Virus record (IMG/VR): IMGVR_UViG_3300017760_000057
Length of the DNA: 28,768 bases
Strand: one strand, 5' to 3'
Origin: a virus
Of the stretch, positions 6,341 to 21,874 are shown in pieces. The first letter of the stretch is position 1, and every line of letters begins with the position of its first letter. A program made the translations under genes and the position numbers. The notes below the pieces were generated by a model, which searched no databases, was not told the DNA's origin, and worked only from the letters and a program-made list of their open reading frames with translations.

Positions 6341-6341
6341 T

Positions 6342-8850: not shown

Positions 8851-8853
8851 ATA

Positions 8854-9099
8854 ATGTATAAAAACGTAATAACATCTGAAAACACAGACGATAGTCATAA
8901 AGAAGTAATTACTTCACAGATACCAGAGCAATTAACTCAAATAGGTGCTGATGATAATGTAGAAGCAATTAAAGAACATTTCAAATGGGTTTTAGCAAAT
9001 GACTTTTATAAAGATGAGTTAAGTGCAGAACAGATTACTGAAATGGAATCTTACTTAGATAGCGACTATCAAGACGAGTACGAAGATTTGCCAGAATAA
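8854..9099 (+). CDS. Acidic hypothetical protein
   Basis: 81-aa ORF in a tight gene array. No recognisable motif. Confidence 0.4.
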   Translation: MYKNVITSENTDDSHKEVITSQIPEQLTQIGADDNVEAIKEHFKWVLANDFYKDELSAEQITEMESYLDSDYQDEYEDLPE

Positions 9100-9103
9100 T
9101 TTG

Positions 9104-9111
9104 TATATTTG
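9104..9111 (+). promoter_or_regulatory. TATATTTG (-7-type element) 31 nt upstream of ATG 9135
   Basis: The 12-mer TATATTTGTATA is shared with 16368, and both lie at the same 31-nt distance from the next ATG. Confidence 0.45.
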
Positions 9112-9134
9112 TATAATAACAAATAAATATAATT

Positions 9135-9266
9135 ATGGAAATTACAAAAGAACAAATTGCAAGAGTAAATCAAGTCATTAACACATTGCCTATCGCTGTA
9201 TTAGCACAAGCTCAAGAGATTGTAAAAATACTAAACGAATCGCTACCAAAAGAAGAAGATGAATAA
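9135..9266 (+). CDS. Small hypothetical protein (43 aa)
   Basis: Hand-translated as MEITKEQIARVNQVINTLPIAVLAQAQEIVKILNESLPKEEDE. It overlaps the next gene by 8 nt. Confidence 0.4.
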   Translation: MEITKEQIARVNQVINTLPIAVLAQAQEIVKILNESLPKEEDE

Positions 9267-10530
9267 CCCTGTTTTAGCACTTATACCAAGCGGATATAAA
9301 CAAGATAAAGTTTATTCTGTATTGCCAAATGATGGTACAGGAGATTTTGACTTTGTTAGAGTTGGTGCTGGTACAAGAGTTAATAAAGATGGACTTATAG
9401 AAACTATAGGTGCTTCAACAAACGATATACCAAGACTTGATTGGTTAAATAGCAACTGTCCGAGTTTACTATTAGAGGCACTTAGAACAAACAGACAAGT
9501 TTATTCTGAGCAGTTTGACAATGCAGCTTGGACTAAACAAGCAGACTTAACTGTTACTGCAAATCAAATAATATCTCCTACTGGGGAATTAAATGCTGAT
9601 AAAATAAAAAGAGGCTCAACAAGTGGTACAAACAATTACCTTTCTGATGCTGCTTCTAAGTCATCATCTGCACAGTTAGACATTTGTACTTCTGTTTTCG
9701 TCAAACAAGGCGAGGGCGATTTTTTTGCTTTAAGGATGCAAGGCACTTACCCAAATAGAGCTGATGCTATTTTTCAATTTAGCAATACAACTTTAACAAC
9801 AAGTGTGGCTGGTGCAGATTTTACAATAACAAGTTCTAAAGTAGAAAATTATGGTAATGGTTGGTACAGACTTTCTGTTGTTTACAATACAGATGCTGCT
9901 GCTACTATTGGAAGTTATTTTAGTCCAAGAGCTACAACTGGTCAAATAGATGCTTCAGATACTTCTACAAGTGCTTTTGTTTATATGTGGGGTTGTCAAG
10001 TAGAAGAGGGTAAAACCTTATCAAGCTATATAGAAACACCAGCAAATTCAATGGTAACAAGAAACGCAGATGTTTGTACTGATGCTGGAGATGTTAATTT
10101 ATTTAATATTACAGAGGGTACATTTTTTGTTGATGTAAATAGCTTTAATCCTCCTTATTTAGATTATAATATTATTAGTCTAAGTGATGGTACAACTAAT
10201 AATTATATTACGTTTACTTATCAACTTAATAGTTTAAGAGTTATGGTTTACAATGGCTCAAATCAGCTGAATTTAATTATAACTTCAGAATTTAATATAA
10301 ACCAAAGAAACAAAGTAGCTTTAAAATTTAAAGAAAATGAGTTTAAGGTATATATTAATGGTGCATTGAGGTCTACTACTACAAATGTTGTAGTTCCTAC
10401 TGGTTTTAACAGATTTAATTTTGCAAGTCAAACTGGTGCAGATAGATACTTTGAGGGTAAAGTATATGATGCCAGAGTCTACGACACATACTTAACTGAT
10501 AGCGAATTAGAAACACTTACAACATTATGA
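9259..10530 (+). CDS. Putative receptor-binding/tail-fibre protein with a C-terminal LamG (concanavalin-like) domain
   Basis: 423 aa. The C-terminal FEGKVYDARVYDTYLTDSELETL is the typical LamG_3 ending. The gene lies in the fibre region. Confidence 0.55.
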   Translation: MNNPVLALIPSGYKQDKVYSVLPNDGTGDFDFVRVGAGTRVNKDGLIETIGASTNDIPRLDWLNSNCPSLLLEALRTNRQVYSEQFDNAAWTKQADLTVTANQIISPTGELNADKIKRGSTSGTNNYLSDAASKSSSAQLDICTSVFVKQGEGDFFALRMQGTYPNRADAIFQFSNTTLTTSVAGADFTITSSKVENYGNGWYRLSVVYNTDAAATIGSYFSPRATTGQIDASDTSTSAFVYMWGCQVEEGKTLSSYIETPANSMVTRNADVCTDAGDVNLFNITEGTFFVDVNSFNPPYLDYNIISLSDGTTNNYITFTYQLNSLRVMVYNGSNQLNLIITSEFNINQRNKVALKFKENEFKVYINGALRSTTTNVVVPTGFNRFNFASQTGADRYFEGKVYDARVYDTYLTDSELETLTTL

Positions 10531-10832
10531 TAAAGATAGGTAAATACGAGTTTGTAGATGAGGCACAAGCAAATACTAAGATAGATGCTTTAGAAGAAAA
10601 TCATACACACGCTATAGTAAAACTTGGTCATATAGTTTTAGAACAAAGCGAAATAGATGCAGAGGGTAATGAAATAAAACCAAATGTATTAAGTGAAAAA
10701 TACCACATAGACGTTATGTGGAAAGGAATAGAAGAACATCCTTATGGCTGGAAATCCTATGCAGTTGGAGTAGCAGATGGTAATGGAGTACACAGCTTTT
10801 ATGGGGTGGATTATCAAACAAATAAAATGTAA
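10527..10832 (+). CDS. Hypothetical protein
   Basis: 101-aa ORF with an ATGA overlap onto the upstream gene. Confidence 0.45.
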   Translation: MIKIGKYEFVDEAQANTKIDALEENHTHAIVKLGHIVLEQSEIDAEGNEIKPNVLSEKYHIDVMWKGIEEHPYGWKSYAVGVADGNGVHSFYGVDYQTNKM

Positions 10833-10836
10833 TAAA

Positions 10837-10935
10837 ATGATTAAAGGACTAAGGTACTTAGCAGACAAGTTAGAGCAGTTTAAATTTTGGTTAATTGCAA
10901 AATGGAATAACTTTTTAAAGTCTTTAATGATATGA
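10837..10935 (+). CDS. Very small amphipathic ORF (32 aa), uncertain
   Basis: MIKGLRYLADKLEQFKFWLIAKWNNFLKSLMI. Supported only by tight spacing. Confidence 0.2.
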   Translation: MIKGLRYLADKLEQFKFWLIAKWNNFLKSLMI

Positions 10936-11090
10936 ATTTAGAGGATATAAAATTAGCTTGTTTAAACGTTGTTACTTTAGGTGTTAGTTTTACTGCTGTA
11001 GAGAATAGTTTGAAAATTATACTTCTTTTGGTGTCTATTGCATATACATTACAGAAGATTTATGAAACACATAAAAAGAAAAATAAATAA
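10932..11090 (+). CDS. Holin-like small membrane protein (52 aa, two hydrophobic segments, basic tail)
   Basis: Hand-translated as MNLEDIKLACLNVVTLGVSFTAVENSLKIILLLVSIAYTLQKIYETHKKKNK. It sits directly upstream of, and overlaps, the amidase gene. Confidence 0.5.
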   Translation: MNLEDIKLACLNVVTLGVSFTAVENSLKIILLLVSIAYTLQKIYETHKKKNK

Positions 11091-11502
11091 AATAATAATT
11101 CATTGTACTGCTACTCCAGAGGGCAGACAAATTGATATTGATGATGTCAGACGTTGGCATATTGAAGAAAGAGGGTGGTCAGATGTTGGCTACCATTTTT
11201 TAGTTTTATTAGATGGTACAATACAAATAGGCAGACCATTAGAACGTTCTGGCGCACATACAAGAGGACATAACACAGATAGTATTGGTATAGCTTATGT
11301 AGGTGGTATGAGTGCTGATGGAGAACAAAGCATACCTAAAGATACAAGAACAGAAGAACAAAAAGAGAGTTTAGTAGATTTACTATGTGAGTTAAGATTA
11401 TACTATGGTGGTATAATATACGGACATAGAGATTTTAGTAGTAAAGCTTGTCCGAGCTTTGATGCAAAGAAAGAATACGAAAACATAAGCAACAGATATT
11501 AA
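11062..11502 (+). CDS. N-acetylmuramoyl-L-alanine amidase (T7-lysozyme/PGRP type) endolysin
   Basis: IIIHCTATPEG...VRRWH...GWSDVGYHFLV..DG.I..GRP....GAHT.GHN..SIGIAYVGG...HRDF..KACPSFD. The ORF is open from 11038, and I prefer ATG 11062 (MKHIKRK) to limit overlap. Confidence 0.9.
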   Translation: MKHIKRKINKIIIHCTATPEGRQIDIDDVRRWHIEERGWSDVGYHFLVLLDGTIQIGRPLERSGAHTRGHNTDSIGIAYVGGMSADGEQSIPKDTRTEEQKESLVDLLCELRLYYGGIIYGHRDFSSKACPSFDAKKEYENISNRY

Positions 11503-11988
11503 ATGTCAGATAAAAAATCATATAAAGAACGTAACGGAACTACAAGAGTAGGAGATGCTCTTAGATGGCTTGTAAAACAAGGTAAGGAAGTAGCACCAGA
11601 GATATTAACTATAGCTGGGAATGTTACAGGCATAGAAGCTCTTAATGAATTATCTACAAAAATTAAGGGCGATACAGGACTAAGCGAAACTGATAAGCAA
11701 ATGCTATTAGAGGAGTTGAGGTATGATATGATAGAGATGCAAGAAACTACAAAGAGATGGGTAAGCGATAATCAAACAGACAGCTACTTAACACGCAATA
11801 TAAGACCATTAACACTTGCTTTCTTAACAGCTACATTATTTATATATATAATTTTAGATAGTACATTAGAGGGTTTTAATATAGATTCTCATTGGATAGA
11901 TTTACTATCTTCTCTTATGCTTTTAGTATATGGTGGGTACTTTGGTATGAGGTCTGCTGAGAAGATTACTAAGCAATGGAAAAAATAA
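11503..11988 (+). CDS. Membrane protein of the lysis cassette, possibly a GTA-type 3TM holin
   Basis: 161 aa with a soluble N-terminal half followed by hydrophobic segments (NIRPLTLAFLTATLFIYIILD, WIDLLSSLMLLVYGGYFGM). It starts immediately after the amidase stop codon (TAA then ATG). Confidence 0.45.
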   Translation: MSDKKSYKERNGTTRVGDALRWLVKQGKEVAPEILTIAGNVTGIEALNELSTKIKGDTGLSETDKQMLLEELRYDMIEMQETTKRWVSDNQTDSYLTRNIRPLTLAFLTATLFIYIILDSTLEGFNIDSHWIDLLSSLMLLVYGGYFGMRSAEKITKQWKK

Positions 11989-12141
11989 ATTTTTTTATTT
12001 AAAAATAAAGATATAACTTTACACCATTTATTAGTAAATATATATTTAGGTATAAATAAATAGATATATATAAGTATTAAAAAATAGTCATAAAAAGTTA
12101 TAATAAATAATGACATCTGAAATCTATTCTAATTCCAAGTA

Positions 12142-12543
12142 ATGCCAAAAAAAAAGACTTTAAAATATTGGAAGAATAAGATTGATAAACCTTTTCACGA
12201 ATACATAAGACGTAGAGATGCAGATAACAATACTGGTTATTGTAGTTGTATAAGTTGTGGTAAAAAGGTACACTTTACAGAAACAGATGCTGGTCATTTT
12301 ATAGGTAGGCAACATTTAGTTACAAGATACGATGAACGTAATGTACACGCACAATGTAGAAAGTGTAATAGATTTGAGTATGGTCGTCAATATGAATATT
12401 CTATATCTTTAGGAAAAAAGTTATCTAATCAATTACTACAAAAGTCAAGAGGAGTACTAAAACTTACAGACCCAGAGTGGCAAGAAATATACGATACTTA
12501 TAAGACAAAATTAGATGAAATAAAAAAGCAACAAAACTTTTAG
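12142..12543 (+). CDS. ninG: NinG/Rap-like recombination endonuclease
   Basis: FHEYIRRRDA...CISCGK...DAGHFIGRQHLVTRYDERNVHAQCRKCN matches the lambda NinG family pattern. Confidence 0.75.
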   Translation: MPKKKTLKYWKNKIDKPFHEYIRRRDADNNTGYCSCISCGKKVHFTETDAGHFIGRQHLVTRYDERNVHAQCRKCNRFEYGRQYEYSISLGKKLSNQLLQKSRGVLKLTDPEWQEIYDTYKTKLDEIKKQQNF

Positions 12544-12560
12544 GTATAAGATATAATACC

Positions 12561-12568
12561 TATATTTG
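12561..12568 (+). promoter_or_regulatory. TATATTTG (-7-type element) lying between the ninG-like stop and its terminator
   Basis: Exact TAnnTTTG match in the same arrangement as at 4055. Confidence 0.4.
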
Positions 12569-12620
12569 TGTAAGATGAATTGTCTTTGTTTTTGTTTAAT
12601 AGCTAACCAGCTATAGAAAG

Positions 12621-12647
12621 AGCCACCTTAATTGGTGGTTTTTTTTG
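12621..12647 (+). terminator. Rho-independent terminator
   Basis: gccacc (12622-12627), loop ttaatt, ggtggt (12634-12639) including a G-U pair, then T7. Confidence 0.7.
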
Positions 12648-12708
12648 TTTACATTTTGTTTATTAAAAAATAATTTGTAGCTTTGGGTTAAACAATAAAA
12701 CAATTACA

Positions 12709-12924
12709 ATGACTTACAAAATGATTAGCCTCTATGATAGGCTTAAACCCCACTACAAAGATGCTCTTAAAGTAAAGAACATATCAGAGCCAGACTTAGT
12801 AAACATAACAGTAGAAGCCTTAGAAAGCGAAAGCTATGTAGCAGACTTAAAATATTCAAGTGTTTTAAATTTGCAGTTTTTATTTGGTAATATAAATCCT
12901 TTTGTTTATTTTAAAGACATATAA
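12709..12924 (+). CDS. Hypothetical early protein
   Basis: 71-aa ORF, first gene after the terminator. Confidence 0.45.
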   Translation: MTYKMISLYDRLKPHYKDALKVKNISEPDLVNITVEALESESYVADLKYSSVLNLQFLFGNINPFVYFKDI

Positions 12925-12925
12925 G

Positions 12926-13066
12926 ATGACACATTACGAAGATGTAAAACGAGTAGCCTCAAACGAAACAATAGATTTTTTAAATGCCAGAATAAAAGCA
13001 TTAGAAAAAAGAGTAGAATACTTAGAAGCAATAATGGAAGTAGAATATTTAAACAAACAACAATGA
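12926..13066 (+). CDS. Small coiled-coil hypothetical protein (46 aa)
   Basis: MTHYEDVKRVASNETIDFLNARIKALEKRVEYLEAIMEVEYLNKQQ. It starts 1 nt after the upstream stop and has an ATGA overlap with the next gene. Confidence 0.45.
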   Translation: MTHYEDVKRVASNETIDFLNARIKALEKRVEYLEAIMEVEYLNKQQ

Positions 13067-13473
13067 ACAAAGAAAAATTAAAAGACCTTTACAACAAGTA
13101 CAAATTAGACAAATCAGACTTTTTTAAACACCAACATTACACAATCATTACAAGACAAGGTATTGACAAGATACAAGCATTAGAACAAATAAGTGTAAAC
13201 TATGAAGTTATTAGGTGTGAGCCTAACTTTGCAGTATTTAAAGCACTTGCAAGTAAAGATGGTAAAAGTATAGAAACCTTTGGTAGTGCGTTAAAAGGAG
13301 ATACTTACAAAGAATCAAACACTAACTCTTGGTATGTTGCTGAGATGGCAGAGAAAAGAGCTATGAGTAGAGCAATCCTTAAACTTACAGGTTTCTATAG
13401 TTTAGGCGTGTTTTCAGAAGATGAAAGCGAAAGCTTTAAGAAACCTAAAACAGAATATAAAACCCTTAAATAA
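13063..13473 (+). CDS. Possible Rad52/Sak-like single-strand annealing protein (minimal)
   Basis: DGKSIETFGSA...YVAEMAEKRAMSRAILKLTGFYSLGVF resembles the G.G...A.K.A...A.KRA...G.G motif of Rad52-type annealases. The gene is followed by an SSB-like gene. Confidence 0.4.
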   Translation: MNKEKLKDLYNKYKLDKSDFFKHQHYTIITRQGIDKIQALEQISVNYEVIRCEPNFAVFKALASKDGKSIETFGSALKGDTYKESNTNSWYVAEMAEKRAMSRAILKLTGFYSLGVFSEDESESFKKPKTEYKTLK

Positions 13474-13482
13474 TAAATAAAT

Positions 13483-13785
13483 ATGAGTGCATTAATTAAT
13501 TTTAGTTTAAACGTAGCTAAGCTACCAAAAGAAAAGTTTATTGCTGGTAAAGATGGTAATGTTTATGTAAACCTTACTATGGCAGTAAATGATGAAACAA
13601 GATACGGAAACAATACAAGCGTATATGTTAATCAAACAAAAGAAGAAAGAGAAGCTAAGAAACAACGTCATTACTTAGGCAACGGAAAAGTTGTATGGAC
13701 TGATAACAATATTGTGTTAGCAGAAAGAGAACAAGAGGCTGAACAAGCACCTCAGCAAAAAGAGGTAGCTGATTTACCATTTTAA
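13483..13785 (+). CDS. SSB-like protein with an acidic C-terminal tip ending DLPF
   Basis: 100 aa. The C-terminal EQEAEQAPQQKEVADLPF mimics the bacterial SSB tail (D-I/L-P-F). It lies next to recombination genes. Confidence 0.45.
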   Translation: MSALINFSLNVAKLPKEKFIAGKDGNVYVNLTMAVNDETRYGNNTSVYVNQTKEEREAKKQRHYLGNGKVVWTDNNIVLAEREQEAEQAPQQKEVADLPF

Positions 13786-13797
13786 TTTAATTTACTA

Positions 13798-13826
13798 AAG
13801 AGGGGTTTTTTAACCCCTTTTTTTTA
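13798..13826 (+). terminator. Rho-independent terminator
   Basis: aggggtt (13801-13807), loop tttt, aacccct (13812-13818), then a T-run. Confidence 0.75.
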
Positions 13827-13858
13827 TACCTTTAACAAAAACAAAGCAAAAACTAACA

Positions 13859-14713
13859 ATGACCGAAGAACAAACAACTCAAGAAATGCTAATGGAACTC
13901 ATAAAAGAGGAGTGTACTGTTGACACATCCGAAGTTATGGAGTACCCACCTACAGCATTGAGTTACGGAGAAAAGACAATTCAGACTAAAAAAGGAGATT
14001 TAACATTTCCTATACCTATTGGTACTTATGGAAATTTTTCATTTGTACAAGCACCACCTAAAACAAAGAAAACATTTTTTGCATCACTACTTGCATCAGT
14101 ATATTTAAGTGGTGGTAATAACTTTGGTGGTAACATTAGAGGACACAGAGATAATAAATGCCTTATACACTTTGATACAGAGCAAGGGCATTGGCATAGC
14201 CAGAGAGTATTTAAAAGAGTTTTAGATATGGCTAATATAAAAGAACTTGGGTGTTATCAGACTTATGCTCTTAGAACTATAAACTATAAGACTCGATTAC
14301 AATTTATAGAACACATACTGAAAGAGAACGGAGATAAAAATGGTTTAGTACTTATAGATGGTATAGCAGACTTAGTAAGTGATGTAAACAACTTAGAGGA
14401 AAGTAATCTATGTGTACAAAAGATTATGGAATGGTCTGCTAAATTTAATTGTCATATAGTAACTGTTATACACAGCAACTATGGTAGTGATAAACCTACA
14501 GGACATTTAGGCTCGTTCCTTGAAAAAAAGACAGAAACACAGATACAATTAGAAGCTAACACAGTAAACAAAGAATGGATAACAGTAAGCTGTAAAAGGT
14601 CAAGAGGTTACTCATTTGAAACATTTAGCTTTAGTATAAATGAATATGGTCTACCTTTTGTAGTAGGGGAGATATACGACCCATTAGAATATTATGTACC
14701 TAAAAAATTATGA
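13859..14713 (+). CDS. RecA-superfamily ATPase (AAA_25 / DnaB-C-terminal-like) with an atypical P-loop
   Basis: P-loop-like APPKTKKT, Walker B LVLIDGIADL and sensor-like IVTVIHSN. 284 aa. Confidence 0.5.
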   Translation: MTEEQTTQEMLMELIKEECTVDTSEVMEYPPTALSYGEKTIQTKKGDLTFPIPIGTYGNFSFVQAPPKTKKTFFASLLASVYLSGGNNFGGNIRGHRDNKCLIHFDTEQGHWHSQRVFKRVLDMANIKELGCYQTYALRTINYKTRLQFIEHILKENGDKNGLVLIDGIADLVSDVNNLEESNLCVQKIMEWSAKFNCHIVTVIHSNYGSDKPTGHLGSFLEKKTETQIQLEANTVNKEWITVSCKRSRGYSFETFSFSINEYGLPFVVGEIYDPLEYYVPKKL

Positions 14714-15204
14714 AATCATTAGTAGAAATTGCTTACGACAAACACAAAGACTGGATAAACATAGTTAAAAGCTTTGGATGTAATCCAAGTTTGGCTGAGG
14801 ACGTTGTTCAAAGTATGTATCTACAGTTGATATGCGATATTGATAAAGGATTAGATTTATGGTACGGAAATGAAATTAACAGTTACTATGTCTATAAAGT
14901 ATTGCGTGGAATTTATTTAAATACTCATAAGAAAGAGGCACGAATGATAAAAAGATATATAGAGGATATAGAGGGAGAGATAAGACAAATAGATGAATTA
15001 GGAATAGACGAGATAGAATATGCACAACGTAAAGACTTCATAGATAATATACTTAGTGAGATGTATTGGTATGATAGTAAAGTATTTACTTTAGTTGCTT
15101 CTGGTAAGTCTGTAGCCTCGCTAAGTAGAGATACTAAGATAAGTTATTATAGCTTATACAATACATACAGAAACGCTTTAAAACACATAAAAGACCAACT
15201 GTGA
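14710..15204 (+). CDS. ECF/sigma-70-family-like sigma factor
   Basis: Region-2-like LAEDVVQSMYLQL...YYVYKVLRGIYLNTHKKEAR and region-4 HTH-like KVFTLVASGKSVASLSRDTKISYYSLYNTYRNALKHIK. Confidence 0.55.
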   Translation: MKSLVEIAYDKHKDWINIVKSFGCNPSLAEDVVQSMYLQLICDIDKGLDLWYGNEINSYYVYKVLRGIYLNTHKKEARMIKRYIEDIEGEIRQIDELGIDEIEYAQRKDFIDNILSEMYWYDSKVFTLVASGKSVASLSRDTKISYYSLYNTYRNALKHIKDQL

Positions 15205-15596
15205 GTTTAATAAGAAATAGTAAACAGGTAAAACAAACTATAGATTTTACTGGCATAGAAAGTGGTAAGATACACCCTACTGACATAGATGTAGTTTTAG
15301 AATTTGACAATGAGGTTTTAATATTAATGGAAGTCAAACGCAAAGGTAACAAAATACCATTAGGTCAAAGATTAGTTTTAGAAAGAATAGCAAACTCTTG
15401 GCATACATCTAAGGTTGTTGTATTATATGTTACACACAATTTTGATAATGACAATAAAGATATTCCACTTAATAAATGTCAAGTGGACAGTATATATATG
15501 GATAAGATTTGGAAACCAGCAAAAAAAGAAATATCACTTATAAATACATTAAAAGGTTTAAGCGAATTGTGGAACATTAAAAAACTTAATTTATGA
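15201..15596 (+). CDS. Possible PD-(D/E)XK (VRR-NUC-like) nuclease
   Basis: HPTDIDVVLEFDNEVLILMEVKRKGNKIPLGQRLVLERI fits the D...E.K...Q pattern. GTG start overlapping the upstream stop as GTGA. Confidence 0.35.
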   Translation: MSLIRNSKQVKQTIDFTGIESGKIHPTDIDVVLEFDNEVLILMEVKRKGNKIPLGQRLVLERIANSWHTSKVVVLYVTHNFDNDNKDIPLNKCQVDSIYMDKIWKPAKKEISLINTLKGLSELWNIKKLNL

Positions 15597-15736
15597 GATT
15601 GGGAGATATAGTATATTACATAACAAAGTACACAGGTATAAGATGGATAGTCAAAAAGATTTTTGGAGAAGATTGTGGATGTGATGAAAGAAGAGATGAG
15701 TGGAACGATATAGATTTAGACATATGGAAAAAATAG
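15593..15736 (+). CDS. Small hypothetical protein with a CGC motif (47 aa)
   Basis: MRLGDIVYYITKYTGIRWIVKKIFGEDCGCDERRDEWNDIDLDIWKK, with an ATGA overlap. Confidence 0.35.
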   Translation: MRLGDIVYYITKYTGIRWIVKKIFGEDCGCDERRDEWNDIDLDIWKK

Positions 15737-15915
15737 ATAAAGATAACTGGAAGCAATTTAAAGCTGAGGTAAAAAGTAAACTAACACAAGACCAATATAA
15801 ACTATTGTGTGAGTTACACGCTAAATACTATAACCATAAATACCACGAGCCTTGCAGCTGTAATCCTAAAAGGTTAGTACAATGGATAGAAGACATAGAT
15901 AAGATATATGATTAA
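15724..15915 (+). CDS. Small Cys/His-containing hypothetical protein
   Basis: MEKIDKDNWKQFKAEV...KYHEPCSCNPKRLVQWIEDI. The ORF track starts at GTG 15700, and I prefer ATG 15724. Confidence 0.4.
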   Translation: MEKIDKDNWKQFKAEVKSKLTQDQYKLLCELHAKYYNHKYHEPCSCNPKRLVQWIEDIDKIYD

Positions 15916-16321
15916 AGATATACACAAGTGGGAAAAAGCTGTGATAATGTTACTAAACTTAGATGGTTGGAACTTGACACACACAGGAGATAGTTTTAAG
16001 CATTTTGATGCAATAGGTACAAGTCCAAAAGGTACTGAGGTTGTTATTGAAATGAAGTTTAGAAACAAATATTACAAAGAGAAACTATTAGAGTGCTACA
16101 AGTACGATAAGCTAATAGAAACAGGAAAGATAGCATTATACTTTGTAAATGACCCTAAAGGTAATTATATGTTCTGGCTAAACAACCTAAAGGATTTAAA
16201 AGCAAAAGATATGTACTGTCCAGACACAACACTATGGACTAAAAAGAAACTTCTAAAGCCTTGTTATTTGATAGACGAAAGCCAAGCATCAATAATGAAT
16301 TTAAACGATTTTAAGAAGTAG
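15908..16321 (+). CDS. Possible Hjc-like PD-(D/E)XK endonuclease / Holliday-junction resolvase
   Basis: WEKAVIMLLNLDGWNLTHTGDSFKHFDAIGTSPKGTEVVIEMKFR fits the E...D...E.K pattern. Its 137 aa is the typical size. Confidence 0.4.
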   Translation: MIKDIHKWEKAVIMLLNLDGWNLTHTGDSFKHFDAIGTSPKGTEVVIEMKFRNKYYKEKLLECYKYDKLIETGKIALYFVNDPKGNYMFWLNNLKDLKAKDMYCPDTTLWTKKKLLKPCYLIDESQASIMNLNDFKK

Positions 16322-16332
16322 AGTAAAAAAAG

Positions 16333-16353
16333 TTGTTTATAATTTGTTTATAA
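16333..16353. repeat. Tandem 11-bp-phased direct repeat TTGTTTATAA x2 upstream of a promoter-like element
   Basis: ttgtttataa at 16333-16342 and again at 16344-16353. TATAACAATTA also recurs at 16349 and 16378. Confidence 0.6.
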
Positions 16354-16367
16354 CAATTATTTTTATA

Positions 16368-16375
16368 TATATTTG
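16368..16375 (+). promoter_or_regulatory. TATATTTG (-7-type element) 31 nt upstream of ATG 16399
   Basis: The 12-mer TATATTTGTATA is identical to that at 9104, and the spacing to the next ATG is identical. Confidence 0.45.
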
Positions 16376-16398
16376 TATATAACAATTAAACAAAAACA

Positions 16399-16545
16399 AT
16401 GAACACTTTTACAATTACATTCAAAAACAAAAAAGGTTTAATGATTAGCAAAGACTTTTTATTCGATTGCCACACAGTACAAAAAGCTCAAGAGTTATTT
16501 GAAAACTCTAATGAAGCAAGTGCAAGAAGTATTACTAAACACTAA
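16399..16545 (+). CDS. Small hypothetical protein (48 aa)
   Basis: MNTFTITFKNKKGLMISKDFLFDCHTVQKAQELFENSNEASARSITKH. First ORF after the promoter-like element. Confidence 0.4.
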   Translation: MNTFTITFKNKKGLMISKDFLFDCHTVQKAQELFENSNEASARSITKH

Positions 16546-16549
16546 AACA

Positions 16550-16705
16550 ATGAGAACACAACTAACAGACTTACGCAAAGAACTTAGAGATATAGAATCT
16601 ACACTAAGTGCTAATATGCTTGTAAGACGATTACCCAAATCAACAGAAGCTAAACTGCTTGATAGAGCAGAATACATAAGAAGTGTAATATTTAATATAC
16701 AATAA
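16550..16705 (+). CDS. Small coiled-coil hypothetical protein
   Basis: The ORF is open from ATG 16499, but the internal ATG 16550 (MRTQLTDLRKELRDIE...) avoids a 47-nt overlap with 16399-16545. Confidence 0.4.
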   Translation: MRTQLTDLRKELRDIESTLSANMLVRRLPKSTEAKLLDRAEYIRSVIFNIQ

Positions 16706-16706
16706 A

Positions 16707-16895
16707 ATGAAAAAGACAAAGACAGGATTACATATCGAAACAAGAAAAAACAGGATAGAAGTTTATACACAAAAAGAACTGGAAGAACAAGAGCGTAAAT
16801 TGATGAGGCAGAGAGATACTTTAATGCAATTAATTTTAATCTTAATGTTTTTAGGCATTGCAGTAATAGGTTTTTTAATAGGAACTTCTGTATGA
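16707..16895 (+). CDS. Small single-pass membrane protein
   Basis: 62 aa with the C-terminal hydrophobic helix LMQLILILMFLGIAVIGFLIGTSV. Confidence 0.45.
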   Translation: MKKTKTGLHIETRKNRIEVYTQKELEEQERKLMRQRDTLMQLILILMFLGIAVIGFLIGTSV

Positions 16896-17146
16896 ATCTA
16901 CTACAGAAACAAGCATACAATCAATGGTTTACTTTTTTAGCAGATAAGTTAATGGAGTGGCATAAACAAAAGCCAAACAATAAAGACATAACTAATTGTG
17001 TAAAAGCTATTACAGAGGTTGGTATGTTTAACAATACATTACTTACTGAGTTAGATATAATAACTAAAAGAGAAACCCTTGCAAGAAACGATAAGAACAA
17101 AGAGATACTAAAACTAAAAGAAGAATTAAAACAATATGAAATCTAA
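16892..17146 (+). CDS. Hypothetical protein
   Basis: 84-aa ORF with an ATGA overlap onto the upstream gene. Confidence 0.45.
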   Translation: MNLLQKQAYNQWFTFLADKLMEWHKQKPNNKDITNCVKAITEVGMFNNTLLTELDIITKRETLARNDKNKEILKLKEELKQYEI

Positions 17147-17912
17147 AATAAAATTACTTGATGGTAAATACTACGACAGAGTAGAACTATTAGAACGTAT
17201 GGAAGATGATAGCTTTTACTATGGAGAACTAAACAAGTTAGCACTTAGTAGTAGTAGCCTTAAACAACTTCTGTCAAGTCCTAAGACATATAGCTTCAGC
17301 TTGAAGTATGGTAGTGGAGATAGTGCTGCACTTAGAGCTGGTGCTTTATTCCATTGGGCAATCCTTGAGCCAGAGAAGTTTGCATCACAGAAATTTGTTG
17401 AGGTACAAAGCAGAAACACAAAGAAGTTTAAGGAAGTACAAGAAGAATTTGGTACAGCTTTTACTGCTAAGGAACGAGGAGAAGCTGATAGGCTTGTAGA
17501 TGCGTTCTACAGAAACGAACACGCAAAAGAACTAATAACTAAAGCAGAGTTTGAGATACCAGCTATAGATAATGTATTAGACTTTCCATTTAGAGGTAAA
17601 GCAGATGTATTAGCTACAAATAGAATAGTAGACCTAAAGACTACAACAAACATAAAAGACTTTAGCTGGAGTGCTAATAAGTACGGATATGACGTACAAT
17701 GCTACTTATACTGTAACTTATTCAACAAAGAGTATAAAGACTTCTACTTCCTTGTATTAGATAAAGGCTCATTAGACATAGGTATATTTAATTGTTCTGA
17801 GGAGTTTTATTACAGAGGCGAACAGAAAGTAGAGAAAGCACTTGACTTATACAACAAGTTCTTTATAGAGGGTGCAGACTTAGATAACTATTGTTTAACA
17901 GGAGAATTATGA
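17136..17912 (+). CDS. PD-(D/E)XK exonuclease (RecE C-terminal / DUF3799-like)
   Basis: ALRAGALFHWAILEPEKF and GKADVLATNRIVDLKTT...YGYDVQCYLY match the exodeoxyribonuclease-VIII-like pattern. Confidence 0.75.
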   Translation: MKSKIKLLDGKYYDRVELLERMEDDSFYYGELNKLALSSSSLKQLLSSPKTYSFSLKYGSGDSAALRAGALFHWAILEPEKFASQKFVEVQSRNTKKFKEVQEEFGTAFTAKERGEADRLVDAFYRNEHAKELITKAEFEIPAIDNVLDFPFRGKADVLATNRIVDLKTTTNIKDFSWSANKYGYDVQCYLYCNLFNKEYKDFYFLVLDKGSLDIGIFNCSEEFYYRGEQKVEKALDLYNKFFIEGADLDNYCLTGEL

Positions 17913-18508
17913 TAGCAAGTTTATTAAGCAGAATAGGTATTGAAGTATGGAGAGATATTCCAGAATATGAGGGTAGATATAAAGTTAGTAATTTAGGTAA
18001 TGTTAAAAGTTTAAATTATAACAAAACAAAGAAATCTAAAATAATGACAAAAGGTCTTAACAGCAATGGTAGATATAGAGTTGGTTTATCTAAAAATGGG
18101 AAGCATAGAGGTAATTGCAAAATATCACAGCTTGTCGCTATGGCTTTTTTAAATCATAAGCCTTGCGGTTTGAAAATGGTAGTAGACCATAAAGATAATG
18201 ATAAGTTAAATGACAGACTTTACAATTTGCAAGTAATAACAAATAGACAAAATACTTCTAAAGACAAGAGAGGTGGAACTTCAAAATATACTGGAGTATA
18301 TATGGATAAAAAAAAATGGAGAGCAGCTATAAGAATAAATGGTAAAATTAAATATCTTGGTCTTTTTACAGATGAGAAAGAAGCTGCTAAAGCATATCAA
18401 AACGAATTAAAAAAAATAAATGAAACAAAAGAAACACACACAGATACAAAGAATACTAAGATTAGAAAATGTAGTAGCTCAGCTATATGTACAGATAGAA
18501 GCTATTAA
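17909..18508 (+). mobile_element. Free-standing HNH homing endonuclease (NUMOD4 + HNH_3 + AP2 DNA-binding domain)
   Basis: EVWRDIPEYEGRYKVSNLGNVKSL (NUMOD4), VDHKDNDKLNDRLYNLQVITNRQN (HNH) and YTGVYMDKKKWRAAIRINGKIKYLGLFTDEKEAAKAY (AP2). ATG 17909 forms an ATGA overlap, whereas the ORF track starts at TTG 17891. Confidence 0.85.
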
Positions 18509-18540
18509 ACTTACATTATCCAAAAAAGAAAAAAAGAAAG

Positions 18541-18987
18541 ATGAACAAAAAGATTGATTATATTAGTGGTACTGAATCTGCATATACAATGAATGAACAA
18601 GAAGAGTTAGAGTACGAAGAATGGAAAGCTGGTGTATATGATGAAGAGGACTTCTACCAATATGAAGCAATGGTAAAACAAGAGAGAAAACAAATGCCTG
18701 TATATAGTGGAGTACTTAAATACTTCCCAGATGCAATAAGAGAGGTAGCTAAAGTATCTTGGGCTGGTAATGAACAACACCACCCAGACAAACCTCTGCA
18801 TTGGGATAGAGCTAAGTCATCAGACGAATTAGATGCATTAGCAAGACATTTAATAGAGGCTGGTACAATAGACAAAGATATGCAAAGACATTCAGCAAAG
18901 GTAGCTTGGAGAGCCTTAGCTAACCTACAGAAAGAATTAGAACAAGAGGGTAAAGCACCCTTGAGCCAATATAATAAAACAATATGA
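18541..18987 (+). CDS. DUF5664 / dATP-dGTP diphosphohydrolase-N-like (MazG-related) protein, tentative
   Basis: VYSGVLKYFPDAIREVAKVSWAGNEQHHPDKPLHWDRAKSSDELDALARHL...HSAKVAWRALANLQ resembles that family from memory only. Confidence 0.4.
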   Translation: MNKKIDYISGTESAYTMNEQEELEYEEWKAGVYDEEDFYQYEAMVKQERKQMPVYSGVLKYFPDAIREVAKVSWAGNEQHHPDKPLHWDRAKSSDELDALARHLIEAGTIDKDMQRHSAKVAWRALANLQKELEQEGKAPLSQYNKTI

Positions 18988-19154
18988 AATTTAATTTAAA
19001 GATAGAATACTTAGGTAAAATAGAAAACAAACACGAAGCAGAGAAAGATATGTACCACTTAACCTTTAAGACTTACAATGCAGAAATAACAGGTAAGTTT
19101 GAAAGAAGCGAGTTAAGACACTTAATACAACAATTAGACAACGCAATAGTATGA
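18984..19154 (+). CDS. Small hypothetical protein (56 aa)
   Basis: MKFNLKIEYLGKIENKHEAEKDMYHLTFKTYNAEITGKFERSELRHLIQQLDNAIV, with ATGA overlaps at both ends. Confidence 0.4.
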   Translation: MKFNLKIEYLGKIENKHEAEKDMYHLTFKTYNAEITGKFERSELRHLIQQLDNAIV

Positions 19155-19297
19155 AATCCTTGTGGAGAAAAAAGAATGGTAGATGGTATAAGCTAAAGCC
19201 TAATAACGACAAGGTTAAGTTTATAGCTTGTAACGAAGCGACACAAACAAACTACTATAGCAGAACAAATAAAAAGAGTACTTATAAAGAGTTATAG
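19151..19297 (+). CDS. Small basic hypothetical protein (48 aa)
   Basis: MKSLWRKKNGRWYKLKPNNDKVKFIACNEATQTNYYSRTNKKSTYKEL. It fills the gap up to ATG 19300. Confidence 0.35.
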   Translation: MKSLWRKKNGRWYKLKPNNDKVKFIACNEATQTNYYSRTNKKSTYKEL

Positions 19298-19299
19298 AT

Positions 19300-19656
19300 A
19301 TGAAATTAAAAGCAATTAGAGATATAATATTACAAGTAAACGATATAGATATATTTGAGCAATCAAGACGTAGAGAGGTTATAGAGATGCGAAGTGTAGC
19401 AAACAAGTATATGAGAAAACAAAACAAAAAGATATTTAGAGATATAGTAAATGAATATAAAGAGAACGGATATAACACATCACATTGTTCTATAATACAT
19501 AGCTTAAACACATATAAGCAACATTGTAAATACAATAAAAACATAGAGCTAACATATAAACACCTATTAGGAGATACTAAACTATATGTGATGGAGAAGT
19601 TACCAAAGGCTACTGACCTACAGATAGAACTGATAGAAGAAATACTATTAGGCTAA
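19300..19656 (+). CDS. DnaA-domain-IV-like helix-turn-helix protein
   Basis: SRRREVIEMRSVANKYMRK...GYNTSHCSIIHSL parallels the DnaA C-terminal pattern (R..i..aRqiamYl...HstV.ha). Confidence 0.45.
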   Translation: MKLKAIRDIILQVNDIDIFEQSRRREVIEMRSVANKYMRKQNKKIFRDIVNEYKENGYNTSHCSIIHSLNTYKQHCKYNKNIELTYKHLLGDTKLYVMEKLPKATDLQIELIEEILLG

Positions 19657-19685
19657 AAAAAATTAAAATTGTTTATATATTAATG
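19655..19685 (+). promoter_or_regulatory. Copy E of the repeated element. Here its ATG opens only a 2-codon ORF, and the element sits 37 nt upstream of the small terminase ATG.
   Basis: aaaaaaaattaaaattgtttatatattaatg, with the exact TTATATATTA core. Confidence 0.45.
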
Positions 19686-19686
19686 A

Positions 19687-19714
19687 ATTGATTAATCAAT
19701 CTTTTTTCAATCTT
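19687..19714. promoter_or_regulatory. 14-bp perfect palindrome ATTGATTAATCAAT followed by 11-bp-phased TCAATCTT x2, just upstream of the small terminase gene
   Basis: Palindrome at 19687-19700. TCAATCTT occurs at 19696-19703 and 19707-19714. Confidence 0.5.
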
Positions 19715-19721
19715 TATAAAT

Positions 19722-19991
19722 ATGGATAAGAGAGCAAACAATGGAGGTGCAAGACAAGGTGCTGGTAGAAAGACAAAACAACAAGAGCAAAAGCTAATAG
19801 AAAGGTTAGATGCAATAATAGACAAAGACGAAGCATTATCTAAATTAGGAGAGTTAGTATCTAAAGGAGATATGAGAGCTGTACAGTTATATCTAAGTTA
19901 CCGATATGGTAAACCAAAAGAAAGCGTAGATATAAATTCAAGTGAAGGCTTAAACATCAACTTTAGAGATTTAATAAAGTTCGTTGATTAA
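19722..19991 (+). CDS. terS: Putative terminase small subunit
   Basis: 89 aa with N-terminal NNGGARQGAGRK, a motif common in small terminases. It lies immediately upstream of, and overlaps, the large terminase gene. Confidence 0.5.
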   Translation: MDKRANNGGARQGAGRKTKQQEQKLIERLDAIIDKDEALSKLGELVSKGDMRAVQLYLSYRYGKPKESVDINSSEGLNINFRDLIKFVD

Positions 19992-21189: not shown

Positions 21190-21220
21190 AATAATTTAAA
21201 AACGTTTATATATTAGTATG
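21187..21220 (+). promoter_or_regulatory. Copy C of the repeated element, ending in the start codon of 21218
   Basis: taaaataatttaaaaacgtttatatattagtatg. Confidence 0.5.
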
Positions 21221-21874
21221 AAAGTTAATCTAAGAATACCGACAACTTTAAATGATGTAACTCTAAAACAATACCAAGAGTTTGCAAAGTTAGAAAACAA
21301 GTTAGATGATACAAATGATTCTACAATACAACTAAAGATAGTAGAGATATTTTGTAATGTTCCAGAGATAGTAGTAAGGAATATGAAAGCAACAGATATT
21401 GCTGAGGTCTGTGAAATCATAAATACTATGTTTGATGCACAACACCAGCTTATAAATAGATTTACACTTAATGGTGTGGAGTATGGGTTTATACCAGAGT
21501 TAGATGATATGAGCTTTGGAGAGTATATGGACTTAGATACCTTTATAGGCGATAATGATAATTTACATAGAGCAGTAAATGTATTGTTCAGACCAATAGA
21601 ACACAAGAGAGGGCATAGATACAAGCTAAAAGACTACGACCCAGATACAAGCGAAGATGCTAAAGATTTTCCTTTAGATGCAGTATTAGGTGCAATAGTT
21701 TTTTTTTACAATTTAGGCAAGGACTTATCTCTGGTTATGATGAACTCTTTGGAGAAGAAGAACGAGATAGCTTTAGCTCAGCATCTGCTTTCTCATCCAA
21801 ATGGGGATGGTTTAACGCACTCTATGGAATCGCTAACGGAGATATTACAAAATTTGAAAATATCACTAAACTAA
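21218..21874 (+). CDS. Tail-assembly-chaperone-like protein, zero-frame product (218 aa)
   Basis: ORF beginning at the repeated element and containing a T9 run at 21699-21707. The chaperone call rests on the frameshift architecture and loose motif recall (FGEYMDLDTFIG...LHRAVNVLFRPI). Confidence 0.45.
   Translation: MKVNLRIPTTLNDVTLKQYQEFAKLENKLDDTNDSTIQLKIVEIFCNVPEIVVRNMKATDIAEVCEIINTMFDAQHQLINRFTLNGVEYGFIPELDDMSFGEYMDLDTFIGDNDNLHRAVNVLFRPIEHKRGHRYKLKDYDPDTSEDAKDFPLDAVLGAIVFFYNLGKDLSLVMMNSLEKKNEIALAQHLLSHPNGDGLTHSMESLTEILQNLKISLN

What the first reader, a model, noticed from the sequence alone, without database searches (positions are those of the whole stretch)
14710..15204. Phage-encoded ECF-like sigma factor in a 28.6-kb genome, a candidate cognate factor for the repeated late element
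The 164-aa protein has a region-2-like segment (AEDVVQSMYLQL...VLRGIYLNTHKKEAR) and a region-4-like HTH (GKSVASLSRDTKISYYSLYNTYRNALKHIK). It lies in the early block, translationally coupled (ATGA) to the RecA-fold ATPase gene. The structural operons carry a promoter-like element unlike the host-type TAnnTTTG sites. Together these suggest a simple early-sigma to late-promoter switch. The pairing of the two is my inference.
Basis: inference. Interest (0 to 1): 0.65.

Follow-up and report, generated by a model that had tools for sequence, protein, structure and literature searches.

The report
Phage sigma factor with late promoters
A small marine phage that probably infects flavobacteria encodes a divergent ECF-type RNA polymerase sigma factor, and a five-copy promoter-like element in front of its packaging and structural genes is most likely this factor's target; this is an ordinary phage early-to-late switch, not previously described for this phage group.

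Summary
ORF 14710..15204 (164 aa) exists and overlaps the upstream AAA_25 ATPase gene by ATGA. It is a divergent two-domain (sigma2+sigma4) sigma-70 group IV-like protein. TIGR02937 aligns end to end (E=2.7e-7, below the curated cutoff). A family profile hits solved ECF sigmas. An AlphaFold model (pLDDT 84.5) retrieves almost only ECF sigmas.

The window is a complete ~28.6-kb genome whose closest cultured relatives are Nonlabens (Flavobacteriaceae) phages. The repeated element is real: AAAA-N14-TTATATATTA has 5 copies, all on the + strand and intergenic, against 0 expected. The copies precede terS/terL, the tail/internal-protein genes, the protease, the scaffold/capsid genes and the portal. 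Canonical Bacteroidota promoters (TTTG-N17-21-TAnnTTTG) occur only in the early block that contains the sigma gene.

The element variant tracks the sigma clade: GTTTATATATTA here, CGTTATATA at ~43% sigma identity, and AAAAC-N17-CGTTAATATA (ECF-type AAC/CGT) in Nonlabens phage P12024S. No other transcription factor or RNA polymerase is recognisable.

The sigma-to-late-promoter pairing is therefore well supported but remains an inference. It is a new member of a known kind (compare phiEco32 gp36 and phage 7-11 gp47). The fixed, very short distance from element to ATG suggests leaderless or near-leaderless late mRNAs.

The parts
14710..15204 (+). Gene for a 164-aa divergent ECF-type (sigma2+sigma4) sigma factor
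   Evidence: ORF. TIGR02937 E=2.7e-7 full length. Family profile hits PDB ECF sigmas. AF2 pLDDT 84.5 with a Foldseek top list of ECF sigmas.
13859..14713 (+). AAA_25 (RecA-like P-loop) ATPase gene, overlapping the sigma start codon by ATGA
   Evidence: Pfam PF13481 E=3.8e-7, above cutoff. The overlap is read directly from the sequence.
13797..13826 (+). Intrinsic terminator (GGGGTTTTTTAACCCC plus T8) directly upstream of the ATPase-sigma pair
   Evidence: RNA fold -14.1 kcal/mol, z=-2.8. A hairpin plus T-run is kept in 90 of 128 related loci, with different but complementary stems.
12655..12685 (+). Host-type (Bacteroidota) promoter TTTG-N19-TAGCTTTG; the only host-type promoter found upstream of the sigma gene, which it could reach only by read-through of the terminator at 13797-13826
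   Evidence: Pattern match and context. It follows terminator 12613-12648.
16343..16375 (+). Second host-type promoter, TTTG-N21-TATATTTG, in the early block
19655..19682 (+). Element copy upstream of the putative small terminase (19722) and large terminase (19984..21189)
   Evidence: TerL assignment from PHROG hits.
21188..21215 (+). Element copy abutting the ATG (21218) of the tail/internal-protein operon (21218..28557)
28562..28589 (+). Element copy abutting ATG 28592 of the protease-like gene, which wraps round the genome end to 1158
   Evidence: in-frame wrap shown; PHROG protease hits.
1853..1880 (+). Element copy abutting the ATG (1883) of the scaffold-like gene, followed by the capsid-like gene 2518..3429
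4143..4170 (+). Element copy abutting the ATG (4173) of the operon that contains the portal gene (4520..6340); it sits 20 nt after terminator 4100-4123

Best explanation
The 164-aa protein is a phage-encoded alternative sigma factor of the sigma-70 group IV (ECF-like, sigma2+sigma4) type.

Proposed mechanism:
- Host RNA polymerase with the host primary sigma transcribes the early/DNA-metabolism block from canonical Bacteroidota promoters (12655-12685 and 16343-16375).
- The sigma gene lies in that block, behind a conserved terminator, so it is probably made with a delay or at an attenuated level. This step is inferred.
- The phage sigma then binds host core RNA polymerase and directs it to five phage-specific bipartite promoters with consensus C(T)AAAA - ~12 AT-rich nt - (C/T)GTTTATATATTA.
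- Each promoter heads a late transcription unit: terS/terL, tail and internal proteins, protease, scaffold/capsid, and portal/tail.
- In four of the five copies the ATG lies 2 nt after the element. Initiation therefore probably occurs at or within a few nucleotides of the start codon, giving leaderless or near-leaderless late mRNAs. This step is also inferred.

Shown here: the protein's fold and family, the element's statistics and positions, the two promoter classes, and the sigma-clade/element-variant correlation. Inferred: core binding, promoter recognition, timing and TSS.
For: Protein:
- TIGR02937 matches end to end, E=2.7e-7.
- The family profile matches SigR sigma2 (E=3.6e-4) and full-length SigW, SigE and SigL. 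The AEDxVQxxY and YxYxxLRN motifs align to ECF regions 2.1-2.4.
- 32 of 76 family members hit Sigma70_r2 and 8 of 76 hit r4_2. Many relatives at 40-45% identity carry a precomputed PF04542 hit and JGI 'sigma-70 family' names.
- The AF2 model has pLDDT 84.5. Its top ~25 Foldseek PDB hits are ECF sigmas, and sigma2 superposes on sigmaE region 2 bound to -10 DNA (4lup) at 2.9 A.

Element:
- 5 copies against 0 expected, all + strand and intergenic, each before packaging or structural genes.
- It recurs right after intrinsic terminators, here (4100-4123 then 4143) and in relatives, so new initiation is required there.
- It has no RNA structure (z about +0.3) and no Rfam match.
- The terS-proximal copy is conserved without any adjacent ATG.

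Two promoter classes:
- Full host-type TTTG-N17-21-TAnnTTTG sites on the + strand occur only in the early block.

Pairing:
- The element variant tracks the sigma clade. Clade A has GTTTATATAT 70(+)/4(-) against CGTTATATA 2/10. Clade B (~43% sigma identity) has CGTTATATA 87/11 against GTTTATATAT 11/3.
- Cultured Nonlabens phage P12024S encodes a remote homologue, gp33 (hhalign probability 98.7%). It has AAAAC-N17-CGTTA 6 times against 0.14 expected, all before late genes. That is the AAC/CGT pattern typical of ECF promoters (PMC5758882).
- No RNA polymerase and no other DNA-binding regulator is recognisable in the genome.

Precedent:
- In phage 7-11, the phage sigma gp47 with host core recognises eight bipartite late promoters (PMC8948821).
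Against: - There are no experimental data: no TSS mapping, no RNA polymerase binding and no expression timing.
- On its own the protein scores below the curated cutoffs (TIGR02937 30.4 vs 42.9 bits; Sigma70_r2 14.4 vs 24).
- The sigma-clade/element-variant correlation is confounded by shared ancestry of whole genomes.
- The window's element lacks a clean AAC/CGT pair. Only C...(C/T)GTT is conserved, and the GTT lies 3 nt further from the ATG than in clade B and P12024S, so the -10/TSS assignment is uncertain.
- The 3' end of the element (TATATTAG) matches the host -7 box TAnnTTTG at 7 of 8 positions.
- About a third of the ORFs have no recognisable function and could hide another regulator.
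Confidence: 0.6

Rival explanations
1. The protein is sigma-derived but acts as a late-gene activator rather than a true sigma, like the RinA/ArpU/Ltr proteins of Gram-positive phages. It would bind the element as a DNA-binding protein and recruit host sigmaA holoenzyme.
For: It is small and has a C-terminal HTH. One copy of the element lies upstream of terS, as RinA sites do (PMC3152322). The protein is below curated sigma cutoffs. The 3' end of the element resembles the host -7 box.
Against: The end-to-end alignment and fold match ECF sigmas, including the region 2.1-2.2 core-binding motif. The NCBIfam scan at E<=10 returned sigma models and no RinA or ArpU model. The element lacks the host -33 TTTG. 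A host-type -7 box in that position would place the TSS beyond the conserved ATG.
Confidence: 0.15
2. The protein is a genuine sigma factor but the repeated element is not its target. The element would be read by a host sigma (primary or alternative), and the phage sigma would act on other phage or host promoters.
For: The pairing is purely correlative. ECF-type AAC/CGT-like motifs could in principle be read by host ECF sigmas. The element's 3' end is one mismatch from TAnnTTTG in two copies.
Against: No other repeated promoter-like motif stood out: the only multi-copy intergenic families returned by the repeat search are this element. The element variant switches together with the sigma clade. 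Homologues are virtually absent from 185,579 bacterial species genomes, with 3 hits on short MAG contigs, so this is a phage-specific pair. Host-type promoters in the same genome look quite different.
Confidence: 0.12
3. The element is mainly a translation signal: an AU-rich, unstructured 5' leader with A at -3 in a phylum that lacks Shine-Dalgarno use. The real promoters would lie elsewhere.
For: The distance from element to ATG is fixed: +15 in 36 of 70 unique clade A instances, +12 in 22 of 55 clade B instances and in 6 of 7 P12024S copies. The region is unstructured.
Against: The terS-proximal copy is equally conserved with no ATG at that distance (33 of 70 instances). Copies sit immediately after intrinsic terminators with no room for another promoter. 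The upstream AAAA / AAAAC block is conserved at fixed spacing 15-18 nt from the GTT block, which is promoter geometry rather than ribosome geometry.
Confidence: 0.08

Closest known systems
Salmonella phage 7-11 gp47 and E. coli phage phiEco32 gp36 (phage-encoded ECF-like sigma factors with cognate middle/late promoters; PMC8948821, PMC4331800, PMC5333181)
   Same: A small phage-encoded sigma-70-family protein uses host core RNA polymerase. A handful of well-conserved phage-specific promoters precede late genes (8 in 7-11, 5 here). Early genes are read from host primary-sigma promoters. The 7-11 promoters are bipartite with a ~16-nt spacer, as proposed here.
   Different: There is no specific sequence relationship: hhalign of the family profile against phiEco32 gp36 gives probability 4%. 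The host phylum differs (Bacteroidota, with its unusual -33/-7 primary promoters), the genome is much smaller (28.6 vs ~77 kb) and the promoter sequence differs. No gp79-like cofactor was identified. Here the promoters abut the start codons. None of this system is tested experimentally.
Nonlabens (Persicivirga) phage P12024S gp33, annotated 'hypothetical protein containing Sigma-70 region 2; PF04542' (NC_018271)
   Same: It is a remote homologue of the window protein (BLASTP 23% identity, E=5e-7; hhalign probability 98.7% against the family profile). It has a similar size (159 aa) and sits at the end of the replication block. The phage shares portal homology (36% identity). It has its own repeated element abutting late-gene ATGs.
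   Different: The element sequence is AAAAC-N17-CGTTAATATA rather than C(T)AAAA-N12-(C/T)GTTTATATATTA. The genome is larger (35.7 kb). No function or promoter has been assigned in the record, and no paper was found that does so.
Bacterial ECF (group IV) sigma factors, e.g. B. subtilis SigW, E. coli sigmaE, M. tuberculosis SigE/SigL/SigH
   Same: They share the two-domain sigma2+sigma4 architecture and the region 2 and region 4 motifs. They are the best sequence-profile and structural matches. Relatives' promoters carry the AAC...CGT signature (PMC5758882).
   Different: No adjacent anti-sigma factor, no autoregulatory promoter upstream of its own gene and no link to envelope signalling. The gene is phage-borne and almost absent from bacterial genomes. 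The protein is below the curated family cutoffs.
RinA/ArpU/LtrC late transcriptional activators of Gram-positive phages (PMC3152322)
   Same: A small phage protein is required for the late operon, and its site lies upstream of terS.
   Different: Those proteins act as activators at a single late promoter. Here there are five sites, and the protein's fold and sequence are those of a full sigma2+sigma4 sigma. No RinA or ArpU model was hit.

Membership tests
Sigma-70 family, group IV (ECF-type) | Two-domain architecture of sigma2 plus sigma4 only (no region 1.1, no sigma3) | tested here: met
   The 164-aa protein aligns end to end with the 165-position TIGR02937 model. The AF2 model shows two helical bundles (residues 4-~85 and 101-163) joined by a low-confidence linker. 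The top ~25 Foldseek hits are full-length ECF sigmas.
Sigma-70 family, group IV (ECF-type) | Score above the curated cutoff of the family models (TIGR02937, PF04542, PF08281) | tested here: inconclusive
   The window protein itself scores TIGR02937 30.4 bits vs cutoff 42.9 (E=2.7e-7) and PF04542 14.4 vs 24; PF08281 is not reported. Within the same homologous family, 32 of 76 representatives hit PF04542 and 8 of 76 hit PF08281 at E<=0.01, and many relatives at 40-45% identity carry a precomputed PF04542 hit.
Sigma-70 family, group IV (ECF-type) | Conserved region 2.1-2.2 (core-binding, D-x-x-Q-E) and region 2.3-2.4 motifs; region 4.2 HTH | tested here: met
   The profile alignment to SigR (1h3l) pairs AEDiVQemY with AEDLVQETY and fYiYktLrNlyldllRkkk with WLYRILTNTFINSYRKKQR. 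The alignment to SigW extends through the C-terminal HTH. D31, V33, Y37 and N57 are at least 90% conserved across 76 diverse members.
Sigma-70 family, group IV (ECF-type) | Binds core RNA polymerase and confers promoter-specific initiation | not testable with these tools
   This needs pull-down or in vitro transcription with flavobacterial core RNA polymerase.
Sigma-70 family, group IV (ECF-type) | Typical regulation: co-transcribed anti-sigma factor and an autoregulated promoter | tested here: not met
   The neighbouring genes give no anti-sigma domain: the upstream gene is AAA_25, and the downstream 131-aa ORF has only weak DUF6932/TraO hits. No element copy lies upstream of the sigma gene. 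The protein is therefore ECF-like in architecture, not in signalling logic.
Sigma-70 family, group IV (ECF-type) | Cognate promoters with -35 AAC and -10 CGT-type motifs, spacer ~14-17 (PMC5758882) | tested here: inconclusive
   The window element conserves C(T)AAAA and (C/T)GTT 15-16 nt apart, but 'AAC' and 'CGT' as such occur in only some copies. The relative P12024S has a clean AAAAC-N17-CGTTA, 6 copies vs 0.14 expected. Clade B has AAAAC-N17-CGTTATATA upstream of terS.
phiEco32 gp36 / 7-11 gp47 phage sigma lineage | Detectable sequence homology to gp36 | tested here: not met
   hhalign of the family profile A1 against phiEco32 gp36 gives probability 4.3%, and only the AEDxxQE stretch aligns. 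tblastn of the window protein against 50,697 phage records found nothing at E<=1e-3.
phiEco32 gp36 / 7-11 gp47 phage sigma lineage | A small set of conserved phage-specific promoters upstream of late genes, with host-type promoters for early genes | tested here: met
   There are five element copies before late operons, and host-type promoters only in the early block. The functional assignment is still inferred.
RinA / ArpU late activators | Match to RinA/ArpU family models | tested here: not met
   The NCBIfam scan at E<=10 lists only sigma-70 models plus two unrelated weak hits (F0F1 ATP synthase subunit delta; beta-RFAP synthase), and no phage_rinA or phage_arpU model. The Pfam scan at E<=1 lists none either.

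The most novel reading that the evidence does not exclude
A very large, marine, essentially phage-only sigma family (at least 1,670 clusters at 90% identity) reprograms flavobacterial RNA polymerase onto ECF-type promoters whose -10 block sits at a fixed 8-11 nt from the start codon. Whole late regulons would then be transcribed as leaderless or near-leaderless mRNAs. This would be a coupled transcription-start/translation-start design in a phylum that does not use Shine-Dalgarno sequences, with sigma dosage gated by a conserved read-through terminator.
Probability: 0.3. Interest if true: 0.55.

Novelty: new member of a known kind. Interest (0 to 1): 0.4.

Why it matters
Flavobacteria are major degraders of algal-bloom carbon, and their phages are abundant. 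Nothing is known experimentally about how these phages time gene expression, and Bacteroidota use unusual primary promoters (-33/-7).

If the inference holds, it would provide:
- a compact orthogonal sigma/promoter pair for Bacteroidota, useful as a genetic tool;
- a simple rule for annotating late operons in hundreds of uncultured marine phage genomes;
- a testable case of leaderless late-gene expression.

A cultured relative (P12024S on Nonlabens) makes the idea directly testable. Conceptually, though, it repeats the well-known phage strategy of using an alternative sigma factor to switch on late genes.

Tried and rejected
- Near-identical or protein-level matches of the window or the sigma in 50,697 deposited phage genomes: none. 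Only the portal found cultured relatives.
- Specific kinship with phiEco32 gp36: rejected (hhalign probability 4%).
- The downstream 131-aa ORF as an anti-sigma factor or as a VRR-NUC homologue of P12024S gp32: no support.
- A phage-encoded RNA polymerase or a second DNA-binding regulator as the factor acting on the element: none recognisable among the large ORFs or ten small early ORFs.
- The element as a structured RNA or a known RNA family: no structure (z about +0.3) and no Rfam hit.
- The generic sigma-70 TTGACA/TATAAT scan is uninformative in this AT-rich genome: 89 found against 90.8 expected.
- Element discovery in the most distant sigma clades (L084-L086 and clades C and D) was inconclusive, because the loci are partial and poor in late genes.
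- The search of bacterial genomes gave only 3 short MAG contigs (Flavobacteriaceae, Lacinutrix, Bacteroidetes). This is a hint at the host, not proof.
- The literature search found no study of sigma factors or late promoters in flavobacterial phages.
Full report
OBSERVATION

Its ATG overlaps the TGA of the upstream gene 13859..14713 (ATGA). That gene matches Pfam AAA_25 above the curated cutoff. The sigma stop codon overlaps the GTG start of the next ORF.

The window carries a 123-nt terminal direct repeat (1-123 = 28646-28768), so it is a complete genome of ~28,645 bp. All substantial ORFs are on the + strand and GC skew is positive throughout.

IDENTITY OF THE PROTEIN

Single-sequence profile searches all point to the sigma-70 family, although each falls below the curated cutoff:
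- NCBIfam TIGR02937 (sigma70-ECF): E=2.7e-7, residues 13-164 against model positions 12-165 of 165.
- TIGR02985 (Bacteroidetes sigma-70): E=8.6e-5.
- PHROG 1740 'RNA polymerase sigma factor': E=1.3e-4.
- Pfam Sigma70_r2: E=0.035.

The protein belongs to a large, mostly marine metagenomic family:
- 470 clusters at 90% identity from the single-sequence search.
- 512 representatives at 50% identity with E<=1e-3.
- 1,670 clusters from a family profile.
- Some members are named 'sigma24' or 'sigma-70 family' by JGI, and many relatives at 40-45% identity carry a precomputed PF04542 hit.

A profile built from 76 diverse full-length members (A1) finds solved ECF sigma factors in the PDB. It hits SigR sigma2 (E=3.6e-4) and full-length SigW, SigE and SigL (E about 4-7e-3). 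AEDiVQemY aligns to AEDLVQETY (region 2.1-2.2), and YiYktLrN...Rkk aligns to WLYRILTN...RKK (region 2.3-2.4). Scanned individually, 32 of the 76 members hit Sigma70_r2 and 8 hit Sigma70_r4_2.

An AlphaFold2 model (pLDDT 84.5) shows two helical domains joined by a low-confidence linker. Its best ~25 Foldseek matches in the PDB are ECF sigmas: Mtb SigE, SigL, SigH and SigK; E. coli sigmaE; SigW; AlgU; BldN; CnrH. The sigma2 domain superposes on sigmaE region 2 bound to -10 DNA (4lup) at 2.9 A.

I conclude with high confidence that this is a divergent two-domain sigma-70 group IV-type protein.

GENOME CONTEXT AND HOST

PHROG and Pfam hits give this layout:
- 19722-21189: small (?) and large terminase.
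- 21218-28557: tail and internal virion proteins.
- 28592, wrapping to 1158: a protease-like protein. The in-frame wrap is shown.
- 1883-3429: scaffold-like and capsid-like proteins.
- 4173-10530: portal, tail spike and tail proteins.
- 11038-11988: lysis genes (Amidase_2).
- 12142-19656: DNA-metabolism block with NinG, a RecT-like protein, an SSB-like protein, the AAA_25 ATPase, the sigma, an exonuclease, an HNH endonuclease and a dNTP diphosphohydrolase-like domain.

The closest cultured relatives are Nonlabens (Flavobacteriaceae) phages P12024S and P12024L, with 36% portal identity. Across 185,579 bacterial species genomes the sigma family appears on only three short MAG contigs, labelled Flavobacteriaceae, Lacinutrix and Bacteroidetes. 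A flavobacterial host is therefore likely, and the family is essentially phage-borne.

THE REPEATED ELEMENT

Five copies share AAAA-N14-TTATATATTA: 1853-1880, 4143-4170, 19655-19682, 21188-21215 and 28562-28589. All are on the + strand and intergenic, against 0 expected in 100 shuffles. They precede, in genome order from 19655, terS/terL, the tail/internal-protein operon, the protease gene, the scaffold/capsid genes and the portal operon.

In 70 unique instances from 82 related loci the consensus is cTAAAAtAAtttaaaaatGTTTATATATtA. Information peaks at the C(T)AAAA block and at the GTTTATATAT(T/A)A block.

Several features argue for a promoter rather than a coding, RNA or purely translational signal:
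- (a) Copies sit directly after intrinsic terminators, both here (4100-4123 then 4143) and in many relatives.
- (b) The terS-proximal copy is equally conserved with no ATG at the standard distance (33 of 70 instances).
- (c) The two conserved blocks keep a fixed spacing of 15-18 nt.
- (d) The region has no RNA structure (z about +0.3) and no Rfam match.

TWO PROMOTER CLASSES

Canonical Bacteroidota promoters (TTTG-N17-21-TAnnTTTG) occur on the + strand only at 12655-12685 and 16343-16375. Both are intergenic and both lie in the early block. Additional -7-box-only sites lie at 4055, 9104 and 12561.

The sigma gene lies downstream of the first host-type promoter, but behind a strong terminator at 13797-13826 (-14.1 kcal/mol, z=-2.8). 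A hairpin plus T-run at that position is kept in 90 of 128 related loci with different but complementary stems. In clade B the ATPase ATG follows the T-run directly. The sigma is therefore probably reached by read-through. This would delay or attenuate its synthesis; that conclusion is an inference.

EVIDENCE FOR THE SIGMA-ELEMENT PAIRING

(i) It is the only recognisable transcription factor in the genome. There is no RNA polymerase and no other DNA-binding domain in the large ORFs or in ten small early ORFs.

(ii) The element variant tracks the sigma clade.
- Clade A (this phage, 63-100% sigma identity): GTTTATATAT 70(+)/4(-), against CGTTATATA 2/10.
- Clade B (~43% identity, loci L083 and L087-L138): CGTTATATA 87/11, against GTTTATATAT 11/3. 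This count includes a coding coincidence inside the sigma gene itself. Typical sites are AAAAC-N17-CGTTATATA upstream of terS and CTAAAAC-N12-CGTTATATATAT-ATG upstream of the structural operon.

(iii) Cultured phage P12024S encodes gp33, annotated only as 'containing Sigma-70 region 2'. It is a remote homologue (23% identity; hhalign probability 98.7% against the family profile). That phage has AAAAC-N17-CGTTA six times against 0.14 expected, and a seventh copy at 23945 has the CGTTAATATA block only. All lie immediately before late genes, with CGTT-N8-ATG in six of the seven copies. AAC at -35 and CGT at -10 with a 14-17-bp spacer is the typical ECF promoter signature (PMC5758882).

(iv) There is direct experimental precedent. 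In phage 7-11 the phage sigma gp47 with host core RNA polymerase recognises eight bipartite late promoters, while two early promoters use sigma70. In phiEco32, gp36 does the same for middle and late promoters (PMC8948821, PMC4331800, PMC5333181).

The correlation in (ii) and (iii) is confounded by common descent of whole genomes. No binding or TSS data exist. The pairing therefore remains an inference, which I rate at about 0.6.

MECHANISTIC DETAIL (INFERRED)

Where an ATG abuts the element, its distance from the (C/T)GTT block is fixed: +15 in clade A, and +12 in clade B and P12024S. If (C/T)GTT is the -10 motif, initiation would fall at or within a few nucleotides of the AUG. The late mRNAs would then be leaderless or nearly so.

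The 3-nt difference between clades, and the absence of a clean AAC in the window's copies, leave the exact -35/-10/TSS assignment open.

RIVALS

- A sigma-derived activator of the RinA/ArpU type that recruits sigmaA holoenzyme (0.15). Against it: the full sigma2+sigma4 fold, the region 2.2 motif, the absence of RinA/ArpU model hits, and the lack of a host -33 box.
- A genuine sigma whose targets lie elsewhere, with the element read by a host sigma (0.12). Against it: variant switching with the sigma clade, and the lack of any other repeated motif.
- An element that is mainly a translational leader (0.08). Against it: the ATG-less terS copy and the terminator-adjacent placement.

COMPARISON WITH KNOWN SYSTEMS AND NOVELTY

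Functionally this is the phiEco32/7-11 type of system. It is not the same protein lineage, since hhalign against gp36 gives probability 4%. By architecture it is an ECF-type sigma, but it lacks the anti-sigma partner and autoregulation that typify bacterial ECF systems.

Its cultured homologue has carried a 'Sigma-70 region 2' note in its GenBank record. No paper assigning promoters or function in flavobacterial phages was found.

I classify it as a new member of a known kind. It is of moderate interest because of the host phylum, the size of the family in marine viromes, and the possible leaderless late regulon.

Noticed in passing
window 13797-13826 (and the equivalent position in L002-L143): A strong intrinsic terminator sits directly upstream of the ATPase-sigma gene pair. 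It is conserved in 90 of 128 related loci, with stems that differ in sequence but stay complementary. In clade B the ATPase ATG follows the T-run immediately, so the sigma seems reachable only by terminator read-through.
   Followed up: partly
window 4047-4135: A host-type -7 box (TATTTTTG/TATATTTG at 4047-4062) is followed by two stable hairpins (-23.5 kcal/mol, z=-3.8), the second being terminator 4100-4123. This could be a ~70-nt small RNA, or simply the structured end of the capsid operon. The same TTTGTATATTTG box recurs at 9100-9111.
   Followed up: partly
window 19688-19699: A perfect 12-nt palindrome, TTGATTAATCAA, followed by CTTTTTT lies just downstream of the terS-proximal element copy. 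It is conserved in sigma clades A and B with co-varying flanking bases (A..T, C..G, T..A). As an RNA hairpin it is weak (-2.1 kcal/mol), so a protein-binding site (an operator or a packaging-related site) seems more likely.
   Followed up: partly
window 19683-19691: The terS-proximal element copy is followed directly by a two-codon mini-ORF (ATG AAT TGA). Relatives have no conserved ATG there.
   Followed up: no
window 18541-18987: A 148-aa protein matches Pfam PF18909, the N-terminal domain of dATP/dGTP diphosphohydrolase (E=2.2e-9). Relatives also carry Mom-like and DNA methylase genes (L001, L083), which hints at nucleotide-pool or DNA-modification functions.
   Followed up: no
window 1-123 and 28646-28768; gene 28592..(wrap)..1158: An exact 123-nt terminal repeat shows that the window is a circularly permuted or complete assembly. 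The protease-like gene spans the junction and starts at ATG 28592, not at 100 as a linear ORF scan suggests.
   Followed up: yes
L083 9548 and the equivalent position in most clade B loci: In clade B the -10-like motif CGTTATATA also occurs inside the sigma gene itself, where it encodes the conserved S-L-Y-N of the region 4 HTH. This is probably a coding coincidence, but it inflates motif counts.
   Followed up: partly
window 1883-2506 and 28592..1158: PHROG 24921 is matched in two pieces by two separate genes: the N-terminal part by the protease-like gene and the C-terminal part by the 207-aa gene. This suggests a protease-scaffold fusion in other phages that is split here, with an element copy in front of each half.
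   Followed up: no
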